64,000 nt of DNA from Acidobacteriota bacterium (lineage in GTDB: Bacteria > Acidobacteriota > Thermoanaerobaculia > Multivoradales > JAHZIX01): assembly GCA_034211275.1 (NCBI GenBank), contig JAXHTF010000010.1, forward strand, positions 6,808 to 70,807, given 5' to 3'. Positions 40,674-63,761 of the stretch are shown one piece after another; positions within the stretch are counted from its first letter, which is position 1; every line of letters begins with the position of its first letter. The notes under the pieces are model-generated. The model was not told the origin of the DNA. It saw nothing but the letters and a program-made list of their open reading frames with translations, and did not search any database. Position numbers and translations under genes: made by a program.

Positions 40674-40917
40674 TTCTCCCAGTTCGCCAAGATTTACACA
40701 GTCTGAGTATTTGCTGAGCGCTCGCAAATTGCCTGAAATAGGGGCTTTGTGGCGCCTTTGACCAAATTCTTGTGCTACCATTTCCCGGTTCGGCAAGCCG
40801 GTTCTTTTCTTTCCCGAAGATGTAGAGGCTCGTGAAGAGCTCGTCCTAAGAGCTCGAGGAACCAGCCCAGGGGAAGAGCCCGCCCAAGCAGCCCATTGGA
40901 GGAGGCCGTTGGAGGAA

Positions 40918-45913: not shown

Positions 45914-46305
45914 GCCTTTTGCTCCTTGCGGTCGGCCTCGCGGGGCGCCGCCGGCTCCGTGCCGTCGGTGAGGGCTTGGGCTCGCTTGAAGGCCACGAAC
46001 TCACTCACTTCCCGCTGGGCATCCTGGGGCAGGGAGTTGAATTGGTTGACCAGGTTGACGTCTCGAACGGAGAAGCTGTCCTGGGCCATCTCGTCGAAGA
46101 ATTCGCCGATGCCCATGCCGAACTGCGCCAGGATCTTGAACAGCGTGTCGAGGCTGACCCGATATTCGCCCTTCTCCATGCGGGAGAGGTCGGATTGCTG
46201 GATGCCGATTCGTCCGGCGAGCTCGGTCTGGGTCAGGCTGCGCTGTTTGCGCAGCTGACGAATCTTCTGACCGACGAGCTGTACCTGGCGGATTTTCTGG
46301 GTCAT
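45910..46305 (-). CDS. XRE family helix-turn-helix transcriptional regulator
   Basis: HTH QRSLTQTELAGRIGIQQSDLSRMEKG. Start set at ATG 46305 (AAGG SD). The track ORF extends to 46383. Confidence 0.7.
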   Translation of the reverse strand: MTQKIRQVQLVGQKIRQLRKQRSLTQTELAGRIGIQQSDLSRMEKGEYRVSLDTLFKILAQFGMGIGEFFDEMAQDSFSVRDVNLVNQFNSLPQDAQREVSEFVAFKRAQALTDGTEPAAPREADRKEQKA

Positions 46306-46836
46306 AGCGTTCTGCCTTCGCTCAAGACTTCCATGCTCGAAACGTTCGCGCTCAGTTCCGGTGCCCGGGGGCGTGGAGTTCACTGAGCGGATAGACTTAG
46401 AGAGTACGGAGTTTAAGGGCGCGCGGGCTATGTGTCAACCCCATAGCCCCGTCTTCCCGCCCACCGGCGCTCCGGTCGTGCTCAACGAAGCTTACTGCGC
46501 CTGATAAACTAGAGCTAGTCGGGAGGAGTTTGCGGAAGAATCGTTGACACTCTCCGAGATGCTGTCGTAGCATGAAGTGAGTCATCGAGTTTCGCAGCAA
46601 TTGACAGCCTCGCGACGAGCGGGAGAGTATTGAGAGCTGCTGTGCTATGCGGCGCCGCAATGTTTCGGCCGGAGCTCGACAGGAATGGACGAGTCTCGCA
46701 GGCAGATTTTTTCGGCAGCCCATCGAGGATCCACTTTCTCGAGCAGCCTAAAAAGAGCGGAGAGATCCGTCTACGGGATTCCAAAAACCGGGAATTCCAA
46801 GAGCACAGCCCTCTCGGGTGAAGAAAGCTGAGGCCC

Positions 46837-47817
46837 ATGCCCCAATCAACAGAGCCCCGATCGACCGAACGCCAGGATGCCGAGCTCCAAGCCAGTAAGC
46901 CCAGCATGCAGGCCAACGACGCCATGAGCCCGCCAAGCCACTACGAGGCGATCAAGGAGCAGGCTCTCGACTGCATGCGCGAAGGGCGCCTGCGCGAGGC
47001 CTTGAGCCTCTTCGACCGGGCATTGGCGCTGGCGGGGGAGCTCGGAGATTCCAATTTGGTGGATCGGGCCCTGTGCAACCGCTGTCGAGTCGCCATCGAG
47101 CTGGGCAGCAGCCGGCGAGAGCTCGGCGAGCTGGGCAAGGTGTTGTTGCGCAATCGGGACCCGGAGATTCGCTTCCTCGCCGCCTACAACCTGACCCGGG
47201 CTCATCTGCTGCGCAAAGACGCCGACAAGGCGTTGTTCTATGGCGGCGTCGCCCGGCAAGAGGGCGAGCGGGCTGGCAAGGCCGGATTGGTCTCGGCGGC
47301 ACACAACGGCATTGGGCTGGCGTTGCTCGCCTCGAGCTACTTCGAGCAGGCGGAGGCGGAGTTCGAACAGGCTTTGGGGATGTTGCCGGAAGATCATCGC
47401 CGCCGGCGCGCAGTCATCCTCGACAACTACGGTTACTGCAAGATCATCCGCGGGTCGGTGCCGGAAGGCTTCCAGGCGCTCTTCGAGAGCCTGCGCACCC
47501 TCTGCCGCACCGGCGAGTTGTGGTTCGAGATGATCACCCGAGTCAGCCTTTGCTTCGCCTATCTGGAAGTGGACAAATATCGGGCGGCCTTGCGCCACGG
47601 GCGCCGGGCGCTGGAGATGGCGGAGCGCTTCGAGGACCGTTCGACCCAGAAGTCGGCCCTCTTCTTGCTGGGAGAGGCGGCCAAGCTCGCCGGCGATGAC
47701 TTCGGAGCTCGCCGATACTTTTCCCGGCTTCAGGAGGTCTACTACCCTGACGCTGATTATCTGCCCGACATGCTGATGGTGGTGGACGCCCGCAGCATGG
47801 TGAATCTGAAGGCATGA
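46837..47817 (+). CDS. cytoplasmic TPR-like helical repeat protein, paralog B
   Basis: Paralog of 44903..45913. Its stop overlaps the start of the downstream secreted paralog (ATGA at 47814-47817). Confidence 0.55.
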   Translation: MPQSTEPRSTERQDAELQASKPSMQANDAMSPPSHYEAIKEQALDCMREGRLREALSLFDRALALAGELGDSNLVDRALCNRCRVAIELGSSRRELGELGKVLLRNRDPEIRFLAAYNLTRAHLLRKDADKALFYGGVARQEGERAGKAGLVSAAHNGIGLALLASSYFEQAEAEFEQALGMLPEDHRRRRAVILDNYGYCKIIRGSVPEGFQALFESLRTLCRTGELWFEMITRVSLCFAYLEVDKYRAALRHGRRALEMAERFEDRSTQKSALFLLGEAAKLAGDDFGARRYFSRLQEVYYPDADYLPDMLMVVDARSMVNLKA

Positions 47818-49226
47818 AGATGTTCAAGCGCTACCCCCTTCTGACTACGCTTTTCGCCGTCGGCCTCGCCCTCGTGGTTTGCGGGACGGCTCTCGCCGCC
47901 GAGTCCACCGCGGTGCTCGACCACCAGGGGACTCTCTACACCCTGCTCAGCGGTCGCCGTGGCGATCTCTTCACCGGGGTCAAAGGTCCGGCGGCCAATG
48001 CGCCGGTGCTCGCCCTGGAGATTCGTCAGCCGGGAGAGACTCCCGAGGACACGGAAATTCGTCGGCTGCTGGTGGCGGACACCGGTGATGCCGCGCAGGA
48101 AGAATCCGCCAACCTGGTGCTGGAAGAGGCGGCCGGCACGGTCTATGTCGTCTGGTCCCGAATCCCTGCCGAAGGCCCGGTCGAGCTGCGGGTCTCCGGA
48201 TTGGTAGAGGATCAGTGGTCCGAGCCGGTGAGCTTGGAGGCCATGGGCGACCTGACCGTAGCGCCGCAGCTCTTGGTCACCCGGGATCGTATGGCCAAGC
48301 CGGACCCCGACACTGGAGTGCTGCGGAGCACCGCCCGCACCGTTTTGCATTTGCTGTGGGCCGAGGATGCCGCCGAGGGGGAGCGAGTGCTGTACTCGCC
48401 GCTGGTGCTGGAAGACGGCGCCTACGTCGGCGAGGCGCCGCGGATGGTGCTCAACGACTTCGACCCCACCACGACGCCGGGGGACAAGGGCGCGACCTCC
48501 ATCAGCGCTCCGACCCTCGCCGCCGGAGTCGACAATCAATCGGTGATCGCCGGCTTCGTCAACATGGCCACCGGTCGCCAGCTGAGCATCGAGCTGCGCA
48601 TGCTGCCCTTTGCCCTGGGCACCTTGGCCCGCGACGTTCGCGACTTCATCCTCGACGAAGGGGTCGGCATCGTCGGTCCCGGAAGCGTTGAGTCCCTCGC
48701 CGGCGGCGTCGGCGGCATGATCATCGAGACGGGCCGTGAGTTCCATCCCGGCGTACGCTTCTACTTCGCCTCGGTGGCGCAGGAGGCGGTGCTCGAAGAG
48801 GCCCTGGCCAGTGACGGCCCCGGCGTCGGATTGCAGAGCTTGGCCGGGGGAGTCGGCGGCATGATCATCGAGGTCGGCTCGCGGTTCTTCGGCACCGATG
48901 GCCTGGACCGCAACTTCGTCGCCTCGCGCCTTAGCCTGGTGGAGATCGGCAGCGCCGTCGAGCTCGATCCGGACACTCTGGTCAATCACCTCTTGCGGGT
49001 CTACGTGGTCTCCGACCGCGAAGCTCCGGACGTCGGCGGCGACGCCGCTTTGTTGGTGTCGGAGGATGGCGAGGAGGGCATGGTGGCCTGGCCCGAGGGC
49101 GAGGAGCTGCGCTATCGCGAGACCAGCGGTGCGATTTGGTCGGACGTGCGGGCCGTGCCTCTGGACGAGGGCTTCGATCTCGAGCAGGCCCGCCAGCTGC
49201 TCCGGCAACGTCTCCAGCGGCGCTGA
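47814..49226 (+). CDS. secreted hypothetical protein, paralog B
   Basis: Signal peptide MKMFKRYPLLTTLFAVGLALVVCGTALA. Shares conserved blocks with 43501..44898 (VLALEI.QPG, VLHL.W.E, VLYSP.VL..G.Y). Two GGVGGMIIE.G repeats. Confidence 0.55.
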   Translation: MKMFKRYPLLTTLFAVGLALVVCGTALAAESTAVLDHQGTLYTLLSGRRGDLFTGVKGPAANAPVLALEIRQPGETPEDTEIRRLLVADTGDAAQEESANLVLEEAAGTVYVVWSRIPAEGPVELRVSGLVEDQWSEPVSLEAMGDLTVAPQLLVTRDRMAKPDPDTGVLRSTARTVLHLLWAEDAAEGERVLYSPLVLEDGAYVGEAPRMVLNDFDPTTTPGDKGATSISAPTLAAGVDNQSVIAGFVNMATGRQLSIELRMLPFALGTLARDVRDFILDEGVGIVGPGSVESLAGGVGGMIIETGREFHPGVRFYFASVAQEAVLEEALASDGPGVGLQSLAGGVGGMIIEVGSRFFGTDGLDRNFVASRLSLVEIGSAVELDPDTLVNHLLRVYVVSDREAPDVGGDAALLVSEDGEEGMVAWPEGEELRYRETSGAIWSDVRAVPLDEGFDLEQARQLLRQRLQRR

Positions 49227-49407
49227 GCAACGCCCGCCCGGCTAGTCTCGTCCAGCTAGCTTGATCTGCTAGCCTCCCCTGACTCGCGCCTCGAGGGGGC
49301 GGTAGCGGTTGAACCATTCGTCCGAGCCAGCGGTTTTTTATCGGCCGCTGGCTCTTCTGCTTTCAGCCCGCGGCGCCCGGCGGTAGAGACTCCGGAGCGG
49401 CGGCGGT

Positions 49408-50199
49408 GTGCCTCGGGAGCCATCGGTCTTGACCCAACACCTCTTTCTTCTCCGCGAGCTCGTGCGTCGGGACTTCCGTGGCCGGTACGCTGGTAGCGTC
49501 CTGGGCTTTTTGTGGTCCTTCGTGCAGCCTCTCTGGCAGCTCCTCCTCTTCAGCTTCATCTTCGGTAGCCTGATGAAGATCTCGCCGCTGGGAGAACGCA
49601 CCGACAATTTCGGCGTGTTTCTCTTCTGCGGGCTGCTGCCCTGGACGGCCTTCCACGAGGGCATTGTCCGCGCGTCCACGGCGATCACCGAGAACGCCAG
49701 CCTGGTCAAGAAGCTCAACTTCCCCTCCGAGCTGCTGATCCTGGCGGTGGCGTTGGGGGCTTTGCTCCACGAAGCCATCGCCGCGGCGATCTTCGTCGTG
49801 GTCCTGGTGCTGATGGGTGAGCTGGTGCTCACGGGCCTGCCGCTGCTGTTGGTGGCCCTGCCGCTGCAGCTGGCGCTGACCCTCGGCCTGGGGCTCCTCC
49901 TGTCGGCGGTCCACGTCTTTTTCCGCGACACCGCGCAGGTGGTCACCATGGTGTTCACCGGCTGGTTCTACTTCACCCCCATCGTCTATCCCATGAGCCT
50001 GGTGCCCGAGCGCTTCTTGCCCTGGATCGAGGCCAATCCCCTGACCGCCTTGGTGGCCCTGTATCGGGCTGCCTTCCTCGGCGGCCCGCCGGTGGACCCT
50101 TCGGGAGTGCTGCTGCTGGCGCTTTGGTCGGTGGCTTCGGCTGCTCTCGGCTTATTTCTCTTCTTGCGCTTGAAGCCCAGCTTCGCCGACGAAATCTAG
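49408..50199 (+). CDS. ABC-2 type exporter permease (Wzm/KpsM/TagG-like)
   Basis: 263 aa, 6 TM segments. N-terminal RELVRRDFRGRYAGSVLGFLW motif typical of ABC-2 polysaccharide/teichoic acid export permeases. GTG start. Confidence 0.75.
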   Translation: MPREPSVLTQHLFLLRELVRRDFRGRYAGSVLGFLWSFVQPLWQLLLFSFIFGSLMKISPLGERTDNFGVFLFCGLLPWTAFHEGIVRASTAITENASLVKKLNFPSELLILAVALGALLHEAIAAAIFVVVLVLMGELVLTGLPLLLVALPLQLALTLGLGLLLSAVHVFFRDTAQVVTMVFTGWFYFTPIVYPMSLVPERFLPWIEANPLTALVALYRAAFLGGPPVDPSGVLLLALWSVASAALGLFLFLRLKPSFADEI

Positions 50200-50283
50200 C
50201 CGGTGCTCATCGCACGTTGAACACCGGCGAGGTGTCCGGTGCTCATCGCGCTCTCTCGCCGCGTTTCGCGCACGGCAGGCTGA

Positions 50284-53133
50284 TCAGTTGTCGGTGACGC
50301 TGGTGGTCCAGCCGCCCAAGGTCCCTGCCTCGAAACCGTCGGTAAAGACCACCGTCGCGCTGCCGCTGACGTTCACCGTCAAGCTGTCGCTGGCGGCGCC
50401 GCAGGCGCTGTTGGAGACCTCAACGGTCTTGGCGCCGTTGGAGAACCAAGCCACCGTCAACTGCGAGGTGCTGGAGGATCCGACGCCTCCGGAGGTGGTC
50501 CAGGTCCAGCCGTCGGCGTTGGGGGTGCAGTTGGTGGTGGAGGCGTTGAAGGTCACCGCGTGCCCCCTGTCGGCGGTCGTGGGGCCGGTGACGGTCACCG
50601 ACGGCTCCGGGGCTCCTCCGACGTTGATGATCGGATGGCCCTCGTAGATGTCCGAGGCGGAGTTGCGGCGGACCCGCAGCCGCGGGTGGAAGGTGCCGGT
50701 GGAGGTGTAGGTGAAGAGAGTCACCGGCGCGGGATTGTCTTCGTCCTCGAAGCTGCCGTCGCCGTCCCAGTCATAGTCCCAGAAATCCGGCTCGCCGATG
50801 CTCTCGTCGATGAAGGTGATGGGGACGTTGACGTCGGCGAAGCAAGTTCCGGCGGCGCAGAAGAGCGAGGCGCGGAAATCGGCGATGACCGGCTCCGCGT
50901 TGCTCGCGTCCACCGCCAAGATGGCGCTGGTGCGGGGCACCTCGGCGCAGTTGCGCACCATCACCTGGACGTCGTAGGTGGCGGCGACGTCATAGGTGTG
51001 AACCGGATTCGGGCCGTCGACGGGGTCGCTGGTCCAGCCCTCGAAGCCGTCGTTGTTGGGGCCGCCGCCGGGGTTGTCGCCGAAGCTCCAATTCCACTCC
51101 GTCGCTCCGGACACGCCGGCGTGGAATTGCACCGTGCCGGTGGCCGGAGGATCCGGCTGGCCGTCGTAGGTGGGCGTGAAGGCGCCGTTGGCGGGCAGCG
51201 GATCCAGTGGATTCAGGGTCACCGCCGCGGAGGTCGCGGTGTCGATGCCGGCGGAGTTGGTGACCGTGACCTCGGCGGTGTAGGTGGTGCCGGTGGTCTG
51301 CCCCGGCGTCGAGGTCCACACGAAGGGGTTGACGTTGCCGCCGGAGGCCACCACGCCCCCGCCGTTCTGGCTGATCTGCCAGCTGAACGTCAGCGGCGGT
51401 TGCCCGGTGACATTCTGGGCGGTGAAGGTCACCGGCTGGCAGAGCAGTGCCGGGTTGGGCGATGAGGCGACGCCGGTGACCACCGGCTCCGGTTCCAAGA
51501 CCGTCAGATTCTTCTGGGTGCTGTTGCTGCCGGCTCCGTTGCTGGCTTGGAGAGCGACGGTCTTGCTGCCGGCGCCGTCAAAGGCGATGTTGGCCGGGTT
51601 CTGACTGGTCGAGCCGCCGGGATTGCCGTCGGGGAGGAAGTCCCAATCCCAAGCGGTCGGTCCGCCGGTGCTGGAGTCGAAGAAGTCCACCTGGGTGCCG
51701 GGATAGATCTGCGCCGGGGTCCAGGTGAAGTCCGGGTTCGGCGGCGCGCCGCCGGTGCGCCGGTGGACGTCGAAGATGGCATGGCCTGCGCGGAAAAAAT
51801 AGTCGCCGGAGAACTTGCCCACTCGCGGCGCGACCCGATTGAAGCCGTGGACTCCGTTCTGACGGTAATACCAGCCCCAATAGCTCACCGGTGCGCCGTT
51901 GATGACCACGGTGCCCTGGGGGCTGATATCCGTCGGCGAAGAGGGATTGCGAACGTCGTAGAGCCATTCCTTCTGGTTGCCGCTCTGGCAATAGCCGCTG
52001 TCGCCGAAATAGAGGAACGGAATATCGCCGGTGGAGCGGCTGAAGGTCACCAGCGGGTCGCCCACCGGATCCATGCTCCGGGACCACATGGGAGAGCCGG
52101 GAGAGCAGAAGCCATCGGTGATGCAGGAGACATCGTAGATGCGCGCCTGGGTGTCTGTGCGAGCGGCCAGGTAGTAGTCGGCGCCGTCCTGCCAGAGCGC
52201 GACACCGTAGATGCTGTCGCCGCTCAAAGCGTCCATCACCATCGAGGGCTGGGACGGGTTGGAGACGTCCCAGATCTCGAAGCCGCGGGGCGAGAAGGTG
52301 GAGCTGAGAACGATGAAGTCGCCGGCGCCGTCAAGGTAATTGGCGCGGATGCGCGAGCCGATCTTGCCGAGGTAGATCCCCGGGCAGAAGGTGGTGCCGG
52401 GCTGGTTCTCGTTGCAGCGGCCGGTGAGGTTCATGGCGGCGGTCATGTCGTAAGCGAAGACGCCACCCTCGCGGTTGGCGGCGACGAAGACATAGTCGCG
52501 GGAGTCGATGGTGGTGGTGTAGACGGCCCGCACCTCGCGGCTGGCGAGGGTGCCGGTGTCCTGGTACTTGATCCTCGGAGTGTCTTTGATGCTGGTATCT
52601 ACGATGGCGACGCCGAGGCCATAGACGCCGCCGATGGCGACGCGGTCCGCCTTGCCGGGCGGAGCGTCGATGTCGGTGAAGACCGAGAAGGCGTGAGCGT
52701 CGGGAGTCCAGTTGAACGGCAGGCTGTTGATGCCCGAATCGAGGAGAGCGGAGGGGGAGCCGGGATTGAAGCGGGCATCCCAAATCTGGAAGCGCATGCT
52801 GGTGGCAGCAAAGACGAAATTCTGCTCTACATCCAGCGACAGCCAGTAGGGGTTCAGCTCGAAGCTGCCCACGCCGTTGAAGTCGGTGGAGTCGCGATTG
52901 CCCGGCAGGGTCGTTGTGGAGGCGGGCTCTAGGCCGTTCCACAGCGCCGACGGGACCGGTACGGCGGGAGTGGCAAAATCACAGTAATTGCAGGTGGTGT
53001 CGCAGTTCTGAGCCACCGCCGGCAGCGCTGCCGAAGCCGTCAGAATCAAGACTGCAGCCAGAGTCAGCCGTCGTCGGGAGGCCGGCCGGGCTTTGGGTAC
53101 AGCGCATGCAAAGAGTTTCGAGGTCCAGCACAT
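50284..53133 (-). CDS. giant secreted protein: N-terminal LVIVD-repeat beta-propeller followed by multiple PKD domains
   Basis: Start set at ATG 53133 (AGGAG 6 nt upstream, signal peptide ...LTLAAVLILTASAALPAVA). LVIVD-type blades (GVAIVDTS, GVFAYDMT, FEIWDVSNPSQP, ARIYDVS, WLYDVRNPSSP). PKD signatures (WDWDF.DG, WNWSFGDN, HTY). Paralogous over about 800 aa to 57561..62324. Confidence 0.65.
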   Translation of the reverse strand: MCWTSKLFACAVPKARPASRRRLTLAAVLILTASAALPAVAQNCDTTCNYCDFATPAVPVPSALWNGLEPASTTTLPGNRDSTDFNGVGSFELNPYWLSLDVEQNFVFAATSMRFQIWDARFNPGSPSALLDSGINSLPFNWTPDAHAFSVFTDIDAPPGKADRVAIGGVYGLGVAIVDTSIKDTPRIKYQDTGTLASREVRAVYTTTIDSRDYVFVAANREGGVFAYDMTAAMNLTGRCNENQPGTTFCPGIYLGKIGSRIRANYLDGAGDFIVLSSTFSPRGFEIWDVSNPSQPSMVMDALSGDSIYGVALWQDGADYYLAARTDTQARIYDVSCITDGFCSPGSPMWSRSMDPVGDPLVTFSRSTGDIPFLYFGDSGYCQSGNQKEWLYDVRNPSSPTDISPQGTVVINGAPVSYWGWYYRQNGVHGFNRVAPRVGKFSGDYFFRAGHAIFDVHRRTGGAPPNPDFTWTPAQIYPGTQVDFFDSSTGGPTAWDWDFLPDGNPGGSTSQNPANIAFDGAGSKTVALQASNGAGSNSTQKNLTVLEPEPVVTGVASSPNPALLCQPVTFTAQNVTGQPPLTFSWQISQNGGGVVASGGNVNPFVWTSTPGQTTGTTYTAEVTVTNSAGIDTATSAAVTLNPLDPLPANGAFTPTYDGQPDPPATGTVQFHAGVSGATEWNWSFGDNPGGGPNNDGFEGWTSDPVDGPNPVHTYDVAATYDVQVMVRNCAEVPRTSAILAVDASNAEPVIADFRASLFCAAGTCFADVNVPITFIDESIGEPDFWDYDWDGDGSFEDEDNPAPVTLFTYTSTGTFHPRLRVRRNSASDIYEGHPIINVGGAPEPSVTVTGPTTADRGHAVTFNASTTNCTPNADGWTWTTSGGVGSSSTSQLTVAWFSNGAKTVEVSNSACGAASDSLTVNVSGSATVVFTDGFEAGTLGGWTTSVTDN

Positions 53134-53531
53134 AAAGACTCCTTCGATCAGCCATGGGGGGGCGATCTGCGGAGGTCGCGACAAGCGCGCGTTCCAGTTC
53201 ATTCAAGCAAGTCGATCCCGCGCACCGGGAGGAATTTATGGATTATGCCATTATCCTATTGCTCGGCGCAATCCTGTCTTCTTCGTTCTTCAGCCGCCAA
53301 CGGGGGCCGCCACTCTCGACGCACAGTGAAGGCGGAGAGGCGACGGTGCTTGACCTCGAAGCTGCTTCTGTTACCATTCGCCCTCTGGAGGCGGCGGCTT
53401 CAAGCCCATCGCTGCTGCCGGAGACCTCGCCGAAGCGAATATCGCAAAACAGCATAGCTCCGCAGACCATCCAGCCACCTCAGCTTTCAATGCCCGACGC
53501 GCTTCGGGCCCTCCAGCAAGGGAGACGATCC

Positions 53532-55310
53532 ATGATTCCAGCCCTCTCGACTTGGCCGCTGCGCGGCCGAATCGCCGTCGTGGCTTTCCTGCTCAGTGCG
53601 CTCTTCGCCCTGCCCCTGGCGCTTCCCGCGGAAGGCCAAATGGGGATGCAGCGGGGAGAGGACCCCATGGACGACCTCGGCTCCTTGGAGCCGGAGGACG
53701 GGAAATGGCTTACCGACGACGAGGGTGAGGAGTACTTCGTCAAGAAGTTGCCGAAGAAAGAGGGGACCTACCAGTACTACGGAGAGAACCAGGTGCGCTA
53801 CAAGCATTGGTTCATCTTCGATCTGGTCAAAGAAGATGACGAGAACCTCTACATCAAGATCTACAAGCCCCGCGAGCACCGCCCTGGGTTCACCCGAGAA
53901 GAGGTGGAGGCCCGGCGAGCCAAGGAGGAAGCGGCCGTCGCCGCCAGCTACCAGGTCGAGGTGGGGGAGAGCGACCGCTTGACCTACATCCCCTTCGATC
54001 AGGGGTTGCCGCGCCGGGGCATGTGGCGCAACGGTTTCGACATCGCCGATGTCAACGGCGACGGTCATCTGGACATCGTTCACGGCCCGGCCCGCAAGGG
54101 GGCTCCGGTGCCCCGCATCTTCCTCGGGGACGGCGAGGGCAATTGGAAGCTCTGGCGCGAGGCCCGCTATCCCCGGGCGCCCTACGACTACGGTGACGCC
54201 GCTGCTGCCGATTTCGATGGTGACGGCCTGACCGACCTGGCTTTCGGTTTCCACCTGCGGGGGCTGCTGGCACTTCGCCAGAGCAGCCCCGGTGTCTTCG
54301 AGGTGTGGAGCGAGGGCCTCGATCTGCAGGTTCCCGGCGCTGGCTCCGACGCTTCCGGCTTTTCCACTAGGGCCATCGAGCTCGCGGACTGGAACGGCGA
54401 CGGTCGTATCGACATCTTGGCCGCGGGGGAGGGCCCCCGGCCCGCCGGGCAAAAAGGCGACAAGACCACCGGCATGGTCTCTTCCCAGGCCTTTGGGGTC
54501 GCCGTCTATCTCAATCACGGGGACGGCACCTGGGAGCGCCTCGGCGCCGACAAGAAGACCTCCGGGCTGTTCGGGGACTACCTCGCCTATGGCGACGTCA
54601 ACGCCGACGGGCGCCTGGACCTGGTGACCTCTTCGAATCTCTTGGGGCGTCAGAACATCCTGCACCTCGGGAGCGAGGACGGAGAGTGGGAGCGCTACAC
54701 GGTGGATCAAATACGCCCCAACGCCTATCTCCAGTCCGTGGGGATTGCCGACTTCGACGGCGACGGTCGGGACGACATCGCCATCGGTTACGCCAGCTGG
54801 CAGCTGAAATTCTGGCGCACCGGCCTCGACGTGCTGTTCTCTCGCCCCGACGATACCTGGGAGCGGCGCACTCTCTTCCTCGAGGAGAGTCGGCTGAGCC
54901 TATGGGCGCTCGGTACCGGTGATGTCGACGGAGACGAGAACGCGGACATCGTCGTGTCCACCGGTGACGGCGGGGTGATGGTGTTCTTGGGCACCGGCAA
55001 GGGCACCTTTACGCGGGAAGCGGCCACTTCTTTGCACAGCGCCCGCGGCTGCCGGGGTTACGCAGTGCGCTTGGCGGATCTCAATGGCGACGGGAAGGAC
55101 GAAATCGTGGCGGCCTTCGCCGACGAGGGCTCGGCTCTGCCCATGACGGAGTTCCCCGTCACCTGCACCAGCGCCGGAGCGATCATGGCTTGGCGTACCG
55201 AATCGTCCCAGGCCGAGAAGGCTGCGGCTGACTCTGCGCAAACCGAGGCTTCGCAAAAAGATCTGGGAGCGAGCGAAGGCCTTGACATGTCGACTGAGGA
55301 AGGCCTATAG
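53532..55310 (+). CDS. secreted FG-GAP/VCBS-repeat (integrin-alpha-like beta-propeller) protein
   Basis: Seven Ca-binding repeat motifs (DVNGDGHLD, DFDGDGLTD, DWNGDGRID, DVNADGRLD, DFDGDGRDD, DVDGDENAD, DLNGDGKDE). Signal peptide after ATG 53532 (AGGGAGA SD). An alternative upstream ATG lies at 53238. Confidence 0.65.
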   Translation: MIPALSTWPLRGRIAVVAFLLSALFALPLALPAEGQMGMQRGEDPMDDLGSLEPEDGKWLTDDEGEEYFVKKLPKKEGTYQYYGENQVRYKHWFIFDLVKEDDENLYIKIYKPREHRPGFTREEVEARRAKEEAAVAASYQVEVGESDRLTYIPFDQGLPRRGMWRNGFDIADVNGDGHLDIVHGPARKGAPVPRIFLGDGEGNWKLWREARYPRAPYDYGDAAAADFDGDGLTDLAFGFHLRGLLALRQSSPGVFEVWSEGLDLQVPGAGSDASGFSTRAIELADWNGDGRIDILAAGEGPRPAGQKGDKTTGMVSSQAFGVAVYLNHGDGTWERLGADKKTSGLFGDYLAYGDVNADGRLDLVTSSNLLGRQNILHLGSEDGEWERYTVDQIRPNAYLQSVGIADFDGDGRDDIAIGYASWQLKFWRTGLDVLFSRPDDTWERRTLFLEESRLSLWALGTGDVDGDENADIVVSTGDGGVMVFLGTGKGTFTREAATSLHSARGCRGYAVRLADLNGDGKDEIVAAFADEGSALPMTEFPVTCTSAGAIMAWRTESSQAEKAAADSAQTEASQKDLGASEGLDMSTEEGL

Positions 55311-55597
55311 TTCCATGAAGTAGCCGACTTAACTGCGGGATTCCAATAGGTGCTTGTTTTTACCTGGTGCCCGCGGGAGAGGCTGCTGACCAAGAAGATC
55401 ACTAGACCTTTTAGGTTTTCGAGTTTTTGACCGGGAGGTGATGCGCCCTTAGTCTTTGAGAGGAGAAGGAGATTCACTGCGAGATTAGGTTCGCCGATGG
55501 GCATAGTGTCCGTCCGGTGGCCGTAAGACTTTCGTAGTGCGTTTTTACCGGGTCCCGTCGTTGGGACCAAAAAAAATTGAATTGGAGACTGTTAGTA

Positions 55598-56920
55598 ATG
55601 AGGAAGTTCATCGCCTCTATCGCCATCGTCGGGCTTCTCGTGCTCGGCGGCTCGGCGTTCGCCGAGATCGGCGCCATCGACTCCGTGCCTGCGGCTACCC
55701 TGCTGTTGCCGTACTTCGAGGTCGCTCCGGCTGCCGGTGTCACCACCCTGTTCTCGATCAACAACGCTTCGGCCGCCCCGGTCCTGGCCCACGTCACCCT
55801 GTGGACCGACCTTTCCCGGCCTACGCTTGACTTCGACGTCTACCTCACCGGTTTCGACGTCGTGACCATCAACCTGGGCGACCTGTTCACCACCGGCGCG
55901 ATCCCGCAGACCGGCCCGAACTTCGACCCGGGCGACGACGCCATCTCCCCGAACGCTCCGGGTGAGTTCTCCTTCGCGGATGTCAACTTCCCGGCTTGCG
56001 CTTTCCCGCTGCCGGCCAACATCCCGGGTTCGCTGCTCACCTACATCCAGAACCTGCACTCCGGCGGTGCGGCTCCGGCCGGCTTCGCCAACAGCGGTCT
56101 CTGCGGTGGTGTGGACTACGGTGACGGCGTCTACCGCGGTTACGTGACCGTCGATGTCGCCAACGCCTGCTCCCTCGAGTTCCCGGGCAGCCCCGGTTAC
56201 TTCGTGAACGGCGGTCAGGGCATCGCCGGCAACGCCAACGTCCTTTGGGGCGACTACTTCTGGGTCGACGTGCCGAACGCGTTCGCCCAGGGTGATTCCC
56301 TCGTCCACATCGAGGCCACCGACACCGGCTTCTGGACGCCTGGCGACTACACCTTCTACGGCCGTTACGTCGGCTACGACGGCAGCGACAACCGCGAGCC
56401 GCTGGCGACCACCTGGGCCGCCCGCTACTTCGCCGGTACCGTCGGTGCCTTCGATGACGACACTGACGTCGTCTGCTGGCGCGACACCGGTCGCGACGAG
56501 AGCGGCTTCTTCACTTGCGGCTCCGCCGTTGCTGGCGCCGTGTCCGTGGATCCGTTCCCGCTGTCCCAGAACCAGATCGTCATCTTCGACGAGCAGGAGA
56601 ACCCGGTTGTCGTGGAGGGCTCGCCCTTCTCGCCGCCGCCGACCCTGGAAGGCGTCCTTCCCTGCCCCTACGAGGCGACTCGGGCTGACGCCAACGACTT
56701 CGGTTCGATCTTCGACTTCGGTTGGTTCTACATGAACCTCAACACCACGACCGGTAGCGTCGTCGATCCGATCAAGCAGTCCTTCGTGACCACCGTGCAC
56801 AGCGCCTCCGGCCTGTTCAGCGTTGGTTACCAGGCGGTTCACCTCGACAGCGCGCTGGCCAAGACCTTCACGGTCACCACCGCTCCGAGCGACGTGATCC
56901 TGCCGCTGGGTGTCGAGTAA
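55598..56920 (+). CDS. secreted hypothetical protein, candidate abundant cell-surface (S-layer-like) protein
   Basis: Signal peptide MRKFIASIAIVGLLVLGGSAFA. Preceded by about 280 bp of AT-rich sequence and followed by a strong intrinsic terminator. The N-terminal region (LLLPYFEV..TLFSINNAS..HVTLWTD) is related to two segments in the C-terminal part of 57561..62324. Confidence 0.55.
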   Translation: MRKFIASIAIVGLLVLGGSAFAEIGAIDSVPAATLLLPYFEVAPAAGVTTLFSINNASAAPVLAHVTLWTDLSRPTLDFDVYLTGFDVVTINLGDLFTTGAIPQTGPNFDPGDDAISPNAPGEFSFADVNFPACAFPLPANIPGSLLTYIQNLHSGGAAPAGFANSGLCGGVDYGDGVYRGYVTVDVANACSLEFPGSPGYFVNGGQGIAGNANVLWGDYFWVDVPNAFAQGDSLVHIEATDTGFWTPGDYTFYGRYVGYDGSDNREPLATTWAARYFAGTVGAFDDDTDVVCWRDTGRDESGFFTCGSAVAGAVSVDPFPLSQNQIVIFDEQENPVVVEGSPFSPPPTLEGVLPCPYEATRADANDFGSIFDFGWFYMNLNTTTGSVVDPIKQSFVTTVHSASGLFSVGYQAVHLDSALAKTFTVTTAPSDVILPLGVE

Positions 56921-56954
56921 GACAAACCCAGTTAGGTAAAGCCTGACAAGAAAA

Positions 56955-56988
56955 GGGGACGGATCCTTCGGGGTCCGTCCCCTTTTGT
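56955..56988 (+). terminator. rho-independent terminator (GGGGACGGAtCC-TTCG-GGgTCCGTCCCC followed by TTTT)
   Basis: GC-rich hairpin with a 4-nt loop and T-tract, 35 nt downstream of the stop at 56920. Confidence 0.6.
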
Positions 56989-57560
56989 CTGTTTCGGCCC
57001 CACCGCGGCCGACTTCTCAGCGAGCTTTCTGTACCCGCACTTTGGGCGATTCCTGCTCTTCCATTGCTCGCTCCGATACCTCTCCGCCAAGAATCCGATC
57101 TCCCGGCCTGTTCCCTTTGCCCTCGGTCGTCCGCATCGCCTCCCTCGTTACTTGGTAAAAGGCGCCAATTTCTTCCAGCGAAGATCTCCCGCCGGCAGCA
57201 CTTTGTTGATACGGTTATCAACTATCCCGCGAGAGGGCAGATCAAAAATAGCCAAGACGGGGCTGGACTGGGCGCTTTAAGCTGTGGCAGCATAGAGCCC
57301 TCCCGCAAGCGGCGACGAGCTTCGGTTCGTCAGAAAGCCCAGGAGCCCCCTAGGTCAGGCTTTGCAGAGGGGGTTCCGCCCCTTCGCGAGATTCCGGGCC
57401 CCGCTTGCGTGAATCGGTCGATTTTGCTATAAAAGCATCTCGACTCTTGAAGAGCCTACTGTCCGCTGTAGCCATCATGATGCCGAGCGTCATGTCGCCT
57501 TCTTTTCATCGTCTCTTCTCGATCTGCTCGCGTTTTCGATCCACAGGAGCCAAGTTGGTT

Positions 57561-62324
<4,764 letters not shown>

Positions 62325-62367
62325 CGTTGGTGCCGGCCGGGGCCCTGCGGGGCCTGTGAATCCAAGC

Positions 62368-62399
62368 GAAGGCCGCCGGTCTACCTGCCGGCGGCCTTC
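62368..62399 (+). terminator. perfect 12-bp stem hairpin (GAAGGCCGCCGG-n8-CCGGCGGCCTTC) downstream of the giant gene, without a clear U-tract
   Basis: Inverted repeat read directly from the sequence 44 nt after the stop at 62324. Confidence 0.4.
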
Positions 62400-62444
62400 C
62401 GCTCGTCTGAACGGATTCGGCCAAAAGGGCTAGAATAAGAGCTC

Positions 62445-63761
62445 ATGAAACAAGTTGTGGTCGAAGCCAGCGGGCTCAGCAAGACCTACCGTGTCTACCA
62501 GCGGCCGTGGGATCGCCTGGTGGAAGCCTTGTTGCGCCGACCCCGTCACAAAGAGTTCCGCTCTCTCCAAGACATCGACTTGCAGCTGGCAGCGGGAGAC
62601 TCGCTGGGCATCATCGGCGAGAACGGCGCCGGCAAGAGCACCTTGCTCAAGATTCTCGCCGGAGTCGCCGCTCCCACCAACGGCGATGTCCAGGTACAGG
62701 GCAAGGTCGCCTCGATCCTGGAGCTGGCCTCCGGCTTCCACCCGGAATTCACCGGCCGCCAGAACATTCAGCTCAACGCTGCCATGCTGGGTCTGAGCCA
62801 GAAAGAGGTGGAGGCCAAGACTCCCAACATCATCGCCTTCAGCGAGCTCGGGGACTTCATCGACCAGCCCGTCAAGGTGTACTCCACCGGCATGGCGATG
62901 CGCCTGGGTTTTGCCATCGCGACCCAGGTGGAGCCGGACGTGCTGATCATCGACGAGGCCCTGTCGGTGGGGGACGGCTACTTCCAGAAGAAGTGCGTCG
63001 ATCGGCTGATGGAGTTCACCCGCGGCGGTGGCACCCTACTCTTCTGCTCCCATGCGATGTACTACGTCACTTCCTTCTGTCAGCGAGCCCTGTGGCTCAA
63101 GGACGGCAAGATCGCGGCCCTGGGGCCGGTGGAGGAGGTGGTGCGCAGATATGAGAACTTCCTCATGCGCAAGCAGCCGCAGGACCCGGTGGAGGTGGCC
63201 GAGCGGCCTGCTGGGCCGGCTCGCATCGTGGAAGCCAGGCTGCTCGATGACGGGCAGGCCGGCGGAACGGCGCCGGTCCTCTACCGGCATCTCCAGCCCC
63301 TGAGTTTGGAAGTGAGCTGGGAGACCACCGAGCCCCAGCGAGCCTTCCACCTGGGCGTGGGCATCGACCGCACTGACAGCGTACAGGTAGCCGCTCTCTC
63401 GACCTACCACGATGGATTGGAGCCTTTCCGGGGCCGCCATCGGTATTCTGTGCGGCTGGACATTCCGCAGCTTCCGATGCTCAAAGGGGAGTACTCCCTG
63501 TATGTCTTCCTGATGGACGAGGAGGCGCTTCACCCCTACGACTCCAAGGTCGTCCACGGCGCCTTCGAAGTGGCCACGGAGGGCTATCGCTTCGGCCTGA
63601 TCCACATCCCCCATCGCTGGCAAACCGAGGAGAGTTCGGGCTCCGTGGTGACGCTGTCCGCCCCTGTGGAAGCGCCTTCTGCGGAGACGGCCGCCTTCGA
63701 GGCCGGCTCCCTGGAAGCTGGCGGGGCGGCTCTCTCGGCGAGCTCAAGGAGTCGCTGGTAG
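62445..63761 (+). CDS. ABC transporter ATP-binding protein (Wzt/KpsT/TagH-like) with a C-terminal extension
   Basis: Walker A GENGAGKST, signature YSTGMAMRLGFA, Walker B VLIIDEAL, H-loop. A C-terminal ~190-aa extra domain as in Wzt-type O-antigen exporters. It is the partner of the permease at 49408..50199 despite 12 kb of separation. Confidence 0.8.
   Translation: MKQVVVEASGLSKTYRVYQRPWDRLVEALLRRPRHKEFRSLQDIDLQLAAGDSLGIIGENGAGKSTLLKILAGVAAPTNGDVQVQGKVASILELASGFHPEFTGRQNIQLNAAMLGLSQKEVEAKTPNIIAFSELGDFIDQPVKVYSTGMAMRLGFAIATQVEPDVLIIDEALSVGDGYFQKKCVDRLMEFTRGGGTLLFCSHAMYYVTSFCQRALWLKDGKIAALGPVEEVVRRYENFLMRKQPQDPVEVAERPAGPARIVEARLLDDGQAGGTAPVLYRHLQPLSLEVSWETTEPQRAFHLGVGIDRTDSVQVAALSTYHDGLEPFRGRHRYSVRLDIPQLPMLKGEYSLYVFLMDEEALHPYDSKVVHGAFEVATEGYRFGLIHIPHRWQTEESSGSVVTLSAPVEAPSAETAAFEAGSLEAGGAALSASSRSRW

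What the first reader, a model, noticed from the sequence alone, without database searches (positions are those of the whole stretch)
49408..63761. Wzm/Wzt-type ABC exporter genes separated by a 12-kb block of giant LVIVD-PKD proteins, an FG-GAP propeller and a putative surface protein
The ABC-2 permease (49408..50199) and its cognate ATPase with a Wzt-like C-terminal extension (62445..63761) are normally adjacent genes. Here they bracket four genes. Two are inverted paralogous giants, 50284..53133 on the minus strand and 57561..62324 on the plus strand, sharing about 800 aa of LVIVD propeller plus PKD domains. Between them lie an FG-GAP/VCBS propeller protein and a 440-aa secreted protein. 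Either a surface-protein island has inserted into the transporter operon, or the whole segment is a single export/assembly locus in which the ABC exporter serves the intervening proteins (for example export of a glycan or lipid anchor for them). The inverted paralogues could mediate inversion or deletion of the intervening segment by homologous recombination.
Basis: partly seen in the sequence, partly recalled or inferred. Interest (0 to 1): 0.7.

Follow-up and report, generated by a model that had tools for sequence, protein, structure and literature searches.

The report
Split glycan exporter flanking surface-protein genes
In this acidobacterial genome the two halves of a sugar-polymer export pump are separated by genes for secreted, probably sugar-binding surface proteins; the same layout recurs in dozens of related genomes, so it is an old inherited cell-envelope locus, not a recent insertion or a DNA-inversion switch.

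Summary
Wzm (49408-50199) and Wzt (62445-63761, with a Wzt_C domain) bracket four genes: a 949-aa protein on the minus strand, an FG-GAP propeller, a 440-aa secreted protein (p447) and a 1587-aa protein. The two large proteins share about 900 aa at 61% identity.

The split layout is conserved. Seven genome or long-contig loci from Thermoanaerobaculia and Holophagales have it, as do 33 of 64 classifiable metagenome loci. In a Wzm tree all 33 fall in one clade. The other clade has wzm-wzt adjacent, followed by the same rSAM-GT4 genes. The cassette therefore looks like an old acquisition, probably a single one, kept ever since.

The inverted paralogues are 70% identical in DNA, with a longest exact match of 17 nt. 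Inversion by homologous recombination is implausible.

p447 has its own conserved promoter and terminator. It belongs to an unannotated family of 2,321 clusters. p447 and the C-terminal domain of the long protein both model as TM1070/ASRT-like beta-sandwiches, a fold predicted to bind sugars. In some relatives p447 modules replace that C-terminal domain.

Best reading: secreted proteins that bind the glycan exported by Wzm/Wzt. This is inferred, not shown. It is a new variant of a known kind, of moderate interest.

The parts
43501..44898 (-). Secreted 465-aa protein with no known domain. Paralogue of the 470-aa protein at 47814-49226. Last gene of the divergent HTH-TPR-unknown unit.
   Evidence: Has a signal peptide. 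35% identical to the 470-aa protein, E 1e-63. No Pfam hit. Syntenic in L022, L023, L024 and about 20 metagenome loci.
44903..45913 (-). Cytoplasmic TPR protein, 336 aa.
   Evidence: Pfam TPR_12 and TPR_MalT. No signal peptide. Conserved upstream of Wzm in the loci with the split layout.
45910..46383 (-). Xre-type HTH regulator. The likely start is 46305, giving 131 aa.
   Evidence: Pfam HTH_3, E 1e-13. 58-73% identical in the Thermoanaerobaculia-type split loci (47% over a short stretch in the Holophagales locus L024), always divergent from Wzm.
46837..47817 (+). Second cytoplasmic TPR protein, 326 aa. Paralogue of 44903-45913.
   Evidence: Pfam TPR_12 and TPR_MalT. Present in L007, L022 and L025.
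47814..49226 (+). Secreted 470-aa protein with no known domain.
   Evidence: Has a signal peptide. No Pfam or NCBIfam hit. Orthologues lie upstream of Wzm in L007 and L022.
49324..49354 (+). Terminator-like hairpin (12-bp stem) between the 470-aa gene and wzm.
   Evidence: Consensus scan only.
49408..50199 (+). Wzm, the ABC-2 permease of an O-antigen/teichoic-acid-type glycan exporter.
   Evidence: PF01061, E 7e-21. Best solved hit is A. aeolicus Wzm (6m96_B), E 8e-24. Only copy in the window.
50284..53133 (-). Large protein A, 949 aa: signal peptide, about 450-aa N-terminal domain (weakly LVIVD-like), PKD region, and a conserved C-terminal tag ...FTDGFEAGTLGGWTTSVTDN.
   Evidence: Belongs to a class of 928-953-aa homologues, nearly all ending in DGFE(S/T/A)G..(S)xW. 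Found in the inverted position only in the window, L006 and L007.
53532..55310 (+). FG-GAP/VCBS-type propeller protein, 592 aa, with a signal peptide. It is the first FG-GAP/p447/large-protein cassette gene downstream of wzm in every split locus read far enough; the window, L006 and L007 carry inverted large-protein paralogue(s) before it, and L087 and L028 an unexamined 1.5-1.9 kb gap.
   Evidence: FG-GAP_3, E 6e-39. Start assigned. 41-63% identical orthologues in the same position.
55282..55311 (+). Sigma-70-like promoter TTGACA-N18-TATAGT for p447, leaving a leader of about 290 nt.
   Evidence: Best promoter match in 46-64 kb, 11 of 12 positions. The same hexamers are conserved in L006, L007 and L105, and all five aligned leaders share an invariant GGAGGTGAT box.
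55598..56920 (+). p447: a 440-aa secreted, very acidic (pI 4.05) all-beta protein of an unannotated family. It forms its own transcription unit.
56951..56986 (+). Strong intrinsic terminator (16-bp stem, then a T-rich tail) directly after p447.
   Evidence: An equivalent GC-rich hairpin plus T tract follows the first p447 copy in L006, L007, L022, L024 and L008.
57561..62324 (+). Large protein B, 1587 aa: signal peptide; N-terminal domain (about 57666-59024); PKD region with two poly-Gly linkers (about 59025-60974); C-terminal all-beta domain of 449 aa (60975-62321).
62445..63761 (+). Wzt, the ABC ATPase with a C-terminal carbohydrate-binding domain.
   Evidence: ABC_tran and Wzt_C. NCBIfam TagH and Wzt/RfbE models match below their cut-offs. 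PDB hits: TarH and full-length A. aeolicus Wzt, E 3e-68, covering residues 12-354.

Best explanation
This is a vertically inherited cell-envelope locus of Acidobacteriota (Thermoanaerobaculia and Holophagales).

Shown:
- An O-antigen-type ABC exporter (Wzm plus Wzt, the latter with a carbohydrate-binding C-domain) belongs to a glycan-synthesis cluster. That cluster continues beyond the window. In relatives it holds rSAM/SPASM, GT4, GT2, methyltransferase, acetyltransferase, sulfatase-like, PIG-L/GT2 and YfhO genes.
- In one Wzm clade a cassette of three Sec-exported proteins lies between wzm and wzt: an FG-GAP propeller, p447, and an N-domain/PKD/C-domain large protein. That clade also has an HTH/TPR/secreted-protein module upstream. 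This layout has been kept across class-level divergence.
- Large protein A is a lineage-restricted extra paralogue in inverted orientation.

Inferred:
- The exported, end-capped glycan is the ligand or anchor for these proteins.
- p447 is made in large amounts from its own promoter and terminator, and coats or binds the glycan.
- Large protein B docks through its conserved C-terminal array of TM1070/ASRT-like beta-sandwiches. Its PKD stalk and faster-evolving N-terminal head project outward.
- The HTH/TPR genes regulate the unit.

The split in the operon is therefore a fixed feature of a composite glycan-plus-protein surface system. It is not a disruption and not a switch.
For: **Layout.**
- The same gene order is found in L007 (Wzt 66% identical), L006, L022/L023, L024 (a complete 5.2-Mb Holophagales genome) and L105 (a 534-kb Thermoanaerobaculia contig). 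L001 and L002 show the part next to Wzt.
- Of 80 metagenome loci found with Wzm, 33 are split, 31 are adjacent and 16 are cut off by contig ends (the tally also includes the window and genome loci).
- All 33 split loci fall in one NJ clade, together with 2 adjacent loci. The other clade holds 29 adjacent loci.
- The adjacent loci carry the same Wzt-rSAM-GT4 continuation. They lack both the cassette and the HTH/TPR module.

**Partnership of Wzm and Wzt.** Each is the only copy in 64 kb. Both match the A. aeolicus Wzm-Wzt structure among their top solved hits (best for Wzm, second to TarH for Wzt).

**Age.** GC3 is 0.79-0.90 throughout the locus.

**Link between p447 and the large proteins.** P0302 and P0364 consist of the large-protein N-domain, PKD repeats and two p447 modules, which sit where protein B has its C-domain.

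**Expression unit.** The p447 promoter, leader box and terminator are conserved across loci. p447 is acidic (pI 4.05) and is the most conserved protein of the locus.

**Rates.** The C-domain is 58% identical in L022, against 35% for the N-domain. This fits a constrained anchor and an exposed head.
Against: - No binding, localisation or expression data exist.
- The proteins have Sec signal peptides only. No outer-membrane secretion or anchoring component is visible in the locus, so they could be periplasmic.
- The similarity to TM1070/ASRT covers about 100 residues of a common beta-sandwich. The sugar-binding role of that superfamily is itself a prediction.
- hhalign finds no sequence-profile relation between p447 and the C-domain.
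- The DUF5719 hit is just below Pfam's cut-off.
- p447 paralogues also occur away from any Wzm/Wzt (L008, L011, L014, L016, L017).
- The Holophagales version of the large protein lacks the C-domain.
- The NJ tree is unrooted by outgroup and has no support values. The two Wzm clades could be paralogous clusters within the same genomes rather than different lineages.
- The promoter and terminator calls are consensus matches only.
Confidence: 0.5

Rival explanations
1. Glycoprotein model. The intervening proteins are acceptors, not binders, of the exported glycan. After export by Wzm/Wzt the lipid-linked glycan is transferred onto p447 and/or the large proteins. This would resemble the S-layer glycoprotein glycan (slg) clusters of Geobacillus and Paenibacillus.
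For: The synteny evidence is the same as for the best explanation. slg clusters with wzm/wzt and a capped glycan are an established precedent (PMC2943079, listed). A GT-C-type YfhO gene lies in the cluster in L005 and L105, and upstream of it in the adjacent-type loci. p447 looks like an abundant acidic surface protein.
Against: No Wzy_C/PglL/WsaB-type or STT3-type oligosaccharyltransferase appears in the annotated 10 kb downstream of Wzt in L001, L003, L005, L024 or L105. YfhO enzymes are known for modifying teichoic acids, not proteins (my own knowledge). The sugar-binding-type fold points to recognition rather than acceptance.
Confidence: 0.2
2. Periplasmic machinery model. FG-GAP, p447 and the large protein are periplasmic enzymes or scaffolds. 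They modify, polymerise, trim or hand over the glycan after export, rather than forming a surface structure.
For: Only Sec signals are present and no outer-membrane translocation component is visible in the locus. p447 has 49 invariant positions among 39 homologues, many of them D, E, H or R. The cluster encodes other extracytoplasmic modifiers, sulfatase-like and arylsulfotransferase-like.
Against: Neither model resembles a known enzyme fold; the best matches are small non-catalytic beta-sandwiches and CBM/lectin-like domains. PKD arrays of 600 aa or more with poly-Gly linkers are typical of extended surface proteins. A monocistronic unit with a strong promoter and terminator, tandem copies and very high conservation suit an abundant structural protein.
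Confidence: 0.15
3. Recent, functionally unrelated island. A surface-protein island landed by chance between wzm and wzt in this genome and has nothing to do with the exporter.
For: Wzm relatives with directly adjacent wzt and no cassette exist.
Against: The same cassette in the same order is present in 33 metagenome loci and 7 genome or long-contig loci, at 35-65% protein identity, including a different class. GC3 matches the flanking genes. No integrase, transposase or repeat boundaries were seen. In the Wzm tree the split loci form one clade.
Confidence: 0.03
4. Invertible segment. The two inverted paralogous genes act as recombination substrates that flip or delete the 4.4-kb FG-GAP/p447 segment, giving phase variation.
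For: The two genes are inverted relative to each other and homologous over about 2.3 kb.
Against: DNA identity is 70.4% and the longest perfect match is 17 nt. This is well below what RecA-type recombination needs (my own knowledge). L006 and L007 have the same orientation as the window. No site-specific recombinase gene lies in the locus. Most split loci have no inverted paralogue at all.
Confidence: 0.02

Closest known systems
Wzm-Wzt O-antigen ABC transporter (Aquifex aeolicus structures 6M96/7K2T/8DKU; E. coli O9a and Klebsiella O-PS systems)
   Same: ABC-2 permease plus an ATPase with a C-terminal carbohydrate-binding domain. The A. aeolicus Wzm-Wzt pair is the best solved hit for Wzm and second to TarH for Wzt. 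The genes lie next to glycosyltransferase and methyltransferase genes, as in ABC-transporter-dependent O-PS clusters.
   Different: wzm and wzt are separated by 12 kb holding four genes for secreted proteins, one on the opposite strand, with terminators in between. The substrate and its final acceptor are unknown.
S-layer glycoprotein glycan (slg) clusters of Geobacillus stearothermophilus and Paenibacillus (PMC2943079)
   Same: A Wzm/Wzt-dependent glycan pathway dedicated to a cell-surface protein layer. In some species it is genetically close to the surface-protein gene.
   Different: Those are Gram-positive systems with a WsaB-type oligosaccharyltransferase and SLH-anchored S-layer proteins. 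Here no such transferase was seen, the organism is a diderm, the proteins are unrelated, and lattice formation is untested.
ASRAH (ASRT/TM1070) superfamily, including actinobacterial cell-surface lipoproteins linked to a glycosyltransferase and WhiB (De Souza, Iyer and Aravind 2009, PMC2739507). I think these probably correspond to Pfam DUF5719; this equivalence was not checked.
   Same: The same small beta-sandwich is the best structural match for both p447 and the C-domain of protein B. The setting is extracytoplasmic with tandem copies. The genes are linked to glycan-synthesis genes. The earlier authors proposed that such proteins bind the polysaccharide made by the linked enzyme.
   Different: There is no lipobox. 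The lineage (Acidobacteriota) and partners (Wzm/Wzt, PKD, FG-GAP) differ. The sequence relation is at or below threshold (DUF5719 25.8 against 26.2 bits; p447 has no hit at all). p447 is about 4 times the size of one ASRAH domain and carries large insertions.
Mycobacterial galactan exporter Wzm/Wzt (Rv3783/Rv3781), separated by glfT1 (from memory; structures 9QFX etc. appear)
   Same: A precedent for wzm and wzt not being adjacent while still forming one transporter.
   Different: There a single cytoplasmic glycosyltransferase gene intervenes. Here it is a 12-kb block of secreted non-enzymatic proteins.
Caulobacter crescentus RsaA S-layer anchored non-covalently on an ABC-transporter-dependent O-antigen (from memory)
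   Same: A working analogy for the proposed mechanism: a surface protein array held on a specific O-polysaccharide.
   Different: RsaA is secreted by a type I system, is unrelated in sequence and fold, and is not encoded inside the exporter operon.

Membership tests
Wzm/Wzt-type (ABC-2) glycan exporter | Integral membrane ABC-2 permease | tested here: met
   PF01061 at 75.2 bits against a cut-off of 26.9. A. aeolicus Wzm E 8e-24.
Wzm/Wzt-type (ABC-2) glycan exporter | Cognate ABC ATPase of the TagH/Wzt subfamily | tested here: met
   ABC_tran at 75.3 bits. TarH E 1.5e-69 and A. aeolicus Wzt E 3e-68. The NCBIfam equivalog cut-offs are not reached (239 against 538; 200 against 400), so no specific substrate can be assigned.
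Wzm/Wzt-type (ABC-2) glycan exporter | Wzt C-terminal carbohydrate-binding domain that recognises a capped glycan end | tested here: met
   PF14524 at 33.5 bits against a cut-off of 30.4. The alignment to full-length A. aeolicus Wzt reaches residue 354. Cap recognition itself cannot be tested here.
Wzm/Wzt-type (ABC-2) glycan exporter | Export of an undecaprenyl-linked polymer made by cluster glycosyltransferases | not testable with these tools
   The window ends 239 nt after wzt. Relatives carry GT4, GT2, methyltransferase and other genes downstream.
LVIVD-repeat beta-propeller (PF08309) | Repeats scoring above Pfam's gathering threshold | tested here: not met
   12.9-13.3 bits against a cut-off of 20.2. 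4 of 9 family members have a sub-threshold hit, best E 0.02. One distant homologue, P0313, has a precomputed PF08309 hit. The fold was not modelled.
PKD domain proteins | PKD/PKD_4 domains above threshold | tested here: met
   Protein B: PKD_4 at 182 bits in 6 stretches. Protein A: 57 bits in 2 stretches.
FG-GAP/VCBS propeller | Multiple FG-GAP repeats above threshold | tested here: met
   FG-GAP_3 at 132.9 bits in 4 stretches; FG-GAP at 71.9 bits.
ASRAH / ASRT-TM1070 superfamily (and DUF5719) | Eight-stranded beta-sandwich superimposable on TM1070/ASRT | tested here: met
ASRAH / ASRT-TM1070 superfamily (and DUF5719) | Significant sequence-profile match | tested here: inconclusive
   C-domain against DUF5719: 25.8 bits against a cut-off of 26.2. 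Three homologues carry a precomputed PF18986 hit. p447 has no Pfam hit at E up to 10. hhalign of p447 against the C-domain gives probability 1.5%.
ASRAH / ASRT-TM1070 superfamily (and DUF5719) | Sugar binding | not testable with these tools
   This is a prediction in the literature (PMC2739507).
S-layer glycan (slg)-type cluster | Dedicated O-oligosaccharyltransferase (WsaB/PglL/Wzy_C type) | tested here: not met
   None among the precomputed Pfam annotations up to 10 kb downstream of Wzt in L001, L003, L005, L024 and L105. Genes further away were not examined.
S-layer glycan (slg)-type cluster | Self-assembling surface-layer protein | not testable with these tools
   Only indirect hints exist for p447: an acidic protein, its own strong promoter and terminator, tandem copies.
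Recombination-driven invertible segment | Long, near-identical inverted repeats, or a site-specific recombinase with its sites | tested here: not met
   70.4% identity over 2,258 nt, longest exact match 17 nt. All ORFs of 43-64 kb are accounted for and none is a recombinase.

The most novel reading that the evidence does not exclude
p447 is the main building block of a previously unrecognised cell-surface coat (S-layer-like or sheath-like) of Thermoanaerobaculia and Holophagae. The coat would be held on an O-antigen-type glycan exported by the flanking Wzm/Wzt. The N-domain/PKD large proteins would be plugged into the same coat through interchangeable C-terminal beta-sandwich arrays, either DUF5719-like or p447-like. 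On this reading the locus encodes a self-contained 'glycan anchor plus protein coat plus projecting adhesin' system with its own HTH/TPR control.
Probability: 0.25. Interest if true: 0.7.

Novelty: new variant of a known kind. Interest (0 to 1): 0.5.

Why it matters
Acidobacteriota are abundant in soils and sediments, but their cell envelopes are almost unstudied.

This locus ties a recognisable glycan exporter to three conserved secreted proteins. One of them founds an unannotated family of 2,321 clusters at 50% identity. Some members of that family are fused to the large-protein scaffold.

If the glycan-anchor model holds, it would give a first molecular description of a surface coat for this group. 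It would assign a function to a large 'hypothetical' family. It would also provide a natural case of genes for a glycan and for its protein ligands evolving inside one operon.

If the model fails, the result still stands that a split wzm...wzt is a stable inherited state here. It should not be read as an annotation error, a disruption or a phase-variation device.

Tried and rejected
- Looking up the window's own Wzt by exact sequence found nothing, both as the window reference and as P0001. I could therefore not read the remaining 10 kb of the source contig. The downstream cluster is inferred from relatives.
- BLASTP and hhalign between p447 and the C-domain of protein B showed no sequence relation. 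The link rests on fold and on fusion proteins only.
- A profile of the N-terminal domain searched against PDB sequences gave no hit.
- The afdb50 fold library was unavailable. Foldseek against the PDB added nothing beyond TM1070/ASRT.
- Rfam search of 43-64 kb gave no match.
- Literature searches for DUF5719, for Acidobacteria with wzm/wzt, and for Thermoanaerobaculia with S-layer found nothing relevant. A Synechocystis preprint mentioning wzm/wzt was not informative.
- The FG-GAP protein against the PDB gave only a marginal hit to a secreted esterase, E 3e-4.
- I searched the window for further copies of the C-terminal DGFE.G...W tag. Only protein A has it.
- The homologous-recombination inversion idea is rejected on DNA identity.
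- The recent-island idea is rejected on synteny depth and GC3.
Full report
**1. What is in the sequence**

The window is high-GC DNA. Its Wzt protein is 100% identical to a database protein (P0001) that NCBI names as from an Acidobacteriota MAG; that protein's longest contig is 74,302 bp.

Between 49.4 and 63.8 kb the following genes are present:

| Gene | Coordinates | Strand | Size and features |
|---|---|---|---|
| Wzm | 49408-50199 | + | ABC2_membrane |
| Large protein A | 50284-53133 | - | 949 aa |
| FG-GAP propeller | 53532-55310 | + | 592 aa from the likely start |
| p447 | 55598-56920 | + | 440 aa, no Pfam or NCBIfam hit |
| Large protein B | 57561-62324 | + | 1587 aa |
| Wzt | 62445-63761 | + | ABC_tran plus Wzt_C, 33.5 bits against a cut-off of 30.4 |

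- The four intervening proteins all begin with Sec-type signal peptides.
- Proteins A and B align over 904 positions at 61% identity.
- Wzm and Wzt are each the only copy in the 64 kb.
- Both have the A. aeolicus Wzm-Wzt O-antigen transporter among their top solved matches. It is the best hit for Wzm. For Wzt it is second to TarH and is the best match covering the C-terminal domain. TarGH and TagGH also score well.
The 'LVIVD' label for the N-terminal domain rests only on sub-threshold Pfam hits.

**2. The split is conserved, not accidental**

Relatives of Wzt at 85%, 73%, 66%, 63% and 53% identity all have an orthologue of protein B immediately upstream, or one gene away.

Loci that span the whole region show the same order:

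- L007 ('Deltaproteobacteria' MAG P_S1_bin.14, probably misnamed): TPR, 470-aa unknown, Wzm, two inverted large-protein paralogues, FG-GAP, two copies of p447, protein B, Wzt, then glycosyltransferases.
- L022/L023: GHMP kinase; 468-aa unknown (-), TPR (-), HTH (-); TPR, 459-aa unknown, Wzm, FG-GAP, p447, a 1699-aa PKD protein, arylsulfotransferase, Wzt, rSAM/SPASM, GT4.
- L024 (complete 5.2-Mb Holophagales genome): M23 peptidase, GHMP kinase, unknown (-), TPR (-), HTH (-), Wzm, FG-GAP, two copies of p447, a 1090-aa PKD/fn3 protein, Wzt, rSAM/SPASM, GT4 and onwards.
- L105 (534-kb Thermoanaerobaculia contig): the same order, continuing into GT2, GT4, GT2, methyltransferase, YfhO and PIG-L/GT2.

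In the window, M23 (40909-42330) and GHMP kinase (42347-43363) occupy the equivalent positions. Synteny with a different class therefore runs from about 40.9 kb to the window's end.

**3. A wider sample**

A metagenome scan with a Wzm alignment returned 80 loci whose Wzm is 57-71% identical to the window's. I classified them by tblastn with the window's proteins.

- 33 have Wzm followed by FG-GAP. Where the contig is long enough, p447, the N/PKD/C large protein and Wzt follow.
- 31 have Wzt within about 10-35 nt of Wzm in most loci; two (L094, L027) have gaps of about 85 and 270 nt.
- The rest end too soon to classify.

In a neighbour-joining tree of Wzm, all 33 split loci lie in one clade, with 2 adjacent and 10 unclassifiable loci. 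The other clade holds 29 adjacent and 6 unclassifiable loci.

The adjacent loci continue Wzt, rSAM/SPASM, GT4 ... GT2, like the split ones. They lack the cassette and the HTH/TPR/unknown module, and most of the long ones examined have a YfhO gene upstream.

The cassette looks like a single old gain that has been kept since. The less likely alternative is one old loss.

Caveats:
- The tree has no outgroup and no support values.
- The two clades could be paralogous clusters in the same organisms.
- GC3 is uniform across the locus, 0.79-0.90.
- No mobility genes are present.

**4. The inverted paralogue**

Among the loci I read, an inverted A-type protein between Wzm and FG-GAP is seen only in the window, L006 and L007.

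Database homologues fall into two size classes:
- About 1555-1760 aa, with the C-domain, ending ...NDPAY.QGE.R.
- About 928-953 aa, without it, nearly all ending in a conserved tag F.DGFE(S/T/A)GD.S.W.

At the DNA level A and B are 70.4% identical over 2,258 nt, with a longest perfect match of 17 nt. That is too diverged for homologous recombination to be a realistic source of inversion. The orientation is also the same in L006 and L007.

**5. What the unknown proteins look like**

*p447*
- At least 4,488 homologues, all unnamed.
- A profile search of 1.84 billion representatives finds 2,321 clusters at E up to 1e-3, and 1,094 at E up to 1e-30.
- It is the best conserved protein of the locus: 84% identity in L006, where its neighbours are 62-66%.
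- It is very acidic (pI 4.05) and has six cysteines.
- Foldseek agrees and finds no whole-protein match.

*C-terminal domain of protein B (449 aa)*
- It models very well (pLDDT 91.6, pTM 0.90) as an all-beta domain; from the secondary-structure pattern I read it as roughly four beta-sandwich modules.
- It touches Pfam DUF5719, at 25.8 bits against a cut-off of 26.2. Three homologues carry a precomputed PF18986 hit.

*The ASRT/TM1070 connection*
- De Souza, Iyer and Aravind defined the ASRT/TM1070 ('ASRAH') superfamily and argued from context and structure that it binds sugars.
- Their cases include actinobacterial cell-surface lipoproteins linked to a glycosyltransferase. They proposed that these bind the polysaccharide made by that enzyme (PMC2739507).
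- There is no detectable sequence relation between p447 and the C-domain.
- In P0302 (1897 aa) and P0364 (1833 aa), however, the large-protein N-domain and PKD region are followed by two p447 modules, exactly where protein B has its C-domain. This is direct genomic evidence that p447-type and C-domain-type arrays are interchangeable parts of one system.
- Within protein B the C-domain is much better conserved than the N-domain or the PKD region: 58% against 35% and about 30-36% in L022.

**6. Transcription signals**

- The best sigma-70-like site in 46-64 kb is TTGACA-N18-TATAGT at 55282-55311, about 290 nt upstream of p447.
- A 16-bp-stem terminator (56951-56986) follows the p447 stop codon.
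- The hexamers recur in L006, L007 and L105. All five aligned leaders share an invariant GGAGGTGAT box.
- A comparable hairpin plus T tract follows the first p447 copy in five other loci.
- These are consensus matches. Their conservation suggests that p447 is a separate, strongly expressed unit.
- A second hairpin (49324-49354) separates the upstream genes from wzm. With protein A on the other strand, wzm and wzt cannot be co-transcribed here.

**7. Most likely mechanism**

*Shown:* a conserved composite locus in which an O-antigen-type exporter and its glycan-synthesis genes enclose genes for Sec-exported beta-rich proteins.

*Inferred:*
- The exported glycan is the ligand or anchor of these proteins.
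- p447 is the abundant component.
- Protein B docks through its C-terminal sandwich array and presents a PKD stalk and a variable N-terminal head.
- The Xre-type HTH and the two cytoplasmic TPR proteins regulate the unit.

I give about 0.8 to the statement 'one conserved functional locus'. I give about 0.4 to the specific glycan-anchor mechanism, hence 0.5 overall.

*Rivals:*
- The proteins are glycosylation acceptors (0.2). No oligosaccharyltransferase was seen.
- They are periplasmic glycan-handling machinery (0.15). No catalytic fold was seen.
- It is an unrelated recent island (0.03).
- It is an invertible switch (0.02).

*Weak points:*
- There are no localisation data.
- No route across the outer membrane is visible.
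- The inference depends on a small, common fold whose sugar-binding role is itself predicted.
- p447 paralogues exist outside such loci.

**8. Comparison with known systems and novelty**

- The exporter is an ordinary member of the Wzm/Wzt family.
- Split wzm/wzt pairs are known elsewhere. From memory, the mycobacterial rfbD/rfbE pair flanks glfT1.
- Glycan clusters serving surface proteins are known from S-layer glycan clusters (PMC2943079).
- What I could not find described is this conserved cassette of FG-GAP, p447 and an N/PKD/sandwich large protein inside the exporter pair, nor the p447 family itself.
- I therefore rate it a new variant of a known kind.
- Interest is moderate. The finding is not surprising in principle. 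It does define a testable hypothesis for the surface architecture of a widespread, poorly known group, and it gives context to a large unannotated family.

Noticed in passing
window 43501-44898 (-) and 47814-49226 (+): Two secreted paralogues of about 465 aa (35% identical, E 1e-63) with no Pfam or NCBIfam hit. Each lies directly downstream of a cytoplasmic TPR paralogue, arranged divergently around an Xre-type HTH gene. The module is conserved upstream of Wzm in the split loci (only the minus-strand copy in many of them) and absent from the adjacent-type loci.
   Followed up: partly
window 50284-50343 (C-terminus of large protein A); homologues P0249-P0313: Nearly all of the 928-953-aa A-type homologues examined (two exceptions) end in a conserved short tag F.DGFE(S/T/A)GD.S.W(S/T)..V.P. 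It looks like a sorting or attachment signal but matches no library model. In this window only protein A carries it.
   Followed up: partly
window 55312-55597 (p447 leader); L006, L007, L022, L105: The roughly 290-nt leader of p447 contains an invariant GGAGGTGAT box about 170 nt upstream of the start codon in all five loci aligned. A purine-rich GAGGAGAAGGAG block follows, well conserved only in the three closest loci. There is no conserved small ORF and no Rfam match. It could be an mRNA-stabilising or regulatory element.
   Followed up: partly
P0302, P0364, P0447, P0452, P0415 and others: p447 modules occur as tandem fusions (proteins of about 765-900 aa) and at the ends of proteins of 1,500-2,400 aa. 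Two of these have the large-protein N-domain and PKD scaffold. The architectures of the other long fusions were not examined.
   Followed up: partly
L024 8346-9740 and 9896-11293: The two p447 copies of the Holophagales genome share near-identical upstream and downstream flanks, including the terminator. This suggests a recent tandem duplication or gene conversion.
   Followed up: no
window 27755-30511 (+) and 30459-35729 (+): A 918-aa cadherin-like/Big_9 protein is followed by a 1756-aa RHS-repeat protein. This may be a polymorphic toxin or surface-protein pair, unrelated to the finding.
   Followed up: no
window 35838-36905 (-) and 37467-38549 (-): A GT9 heptosyltransferase and a PfkB-family sugar kinase (LPS-core-type genes) lie about 11 kb upstream of wzm. 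This hints that the region is devoted to the outer envelope.
   Followed up: no
window 25649-27370 (-): A type II/IV secretion ATPase (T2SSE plus MshEN domains, E 1e-140). I did not check whether a complete secretion or pilus system lies nearby that could export the locus proteins.
   Followed up: no
window 60300-60950 (within large protein B): Two runs of 10-12 glycines separate the last PKD-like modules. They are probably flexible linkers and a possible source of assembly or alignment trouble.
   Followed up: no
L022 16859-18211, L065 19806-20768, L106 8811-10004: In several split loci an arylsulfotransferase-like gene (PF14269) is inserted between the large protein and Wzt. A sulfatase-like protein of about 750 aa recurs downstream. 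The glycan may carry sulfate or a related modification.
   Followed up: no
L038 3811-6319: One adjacent-type metagenome locus carries extra Wzm-like fragments and a second rSAM gene upstream of the intact Wzm-Wzt pair. This suggests local duplication or decay.
   Followed up: no
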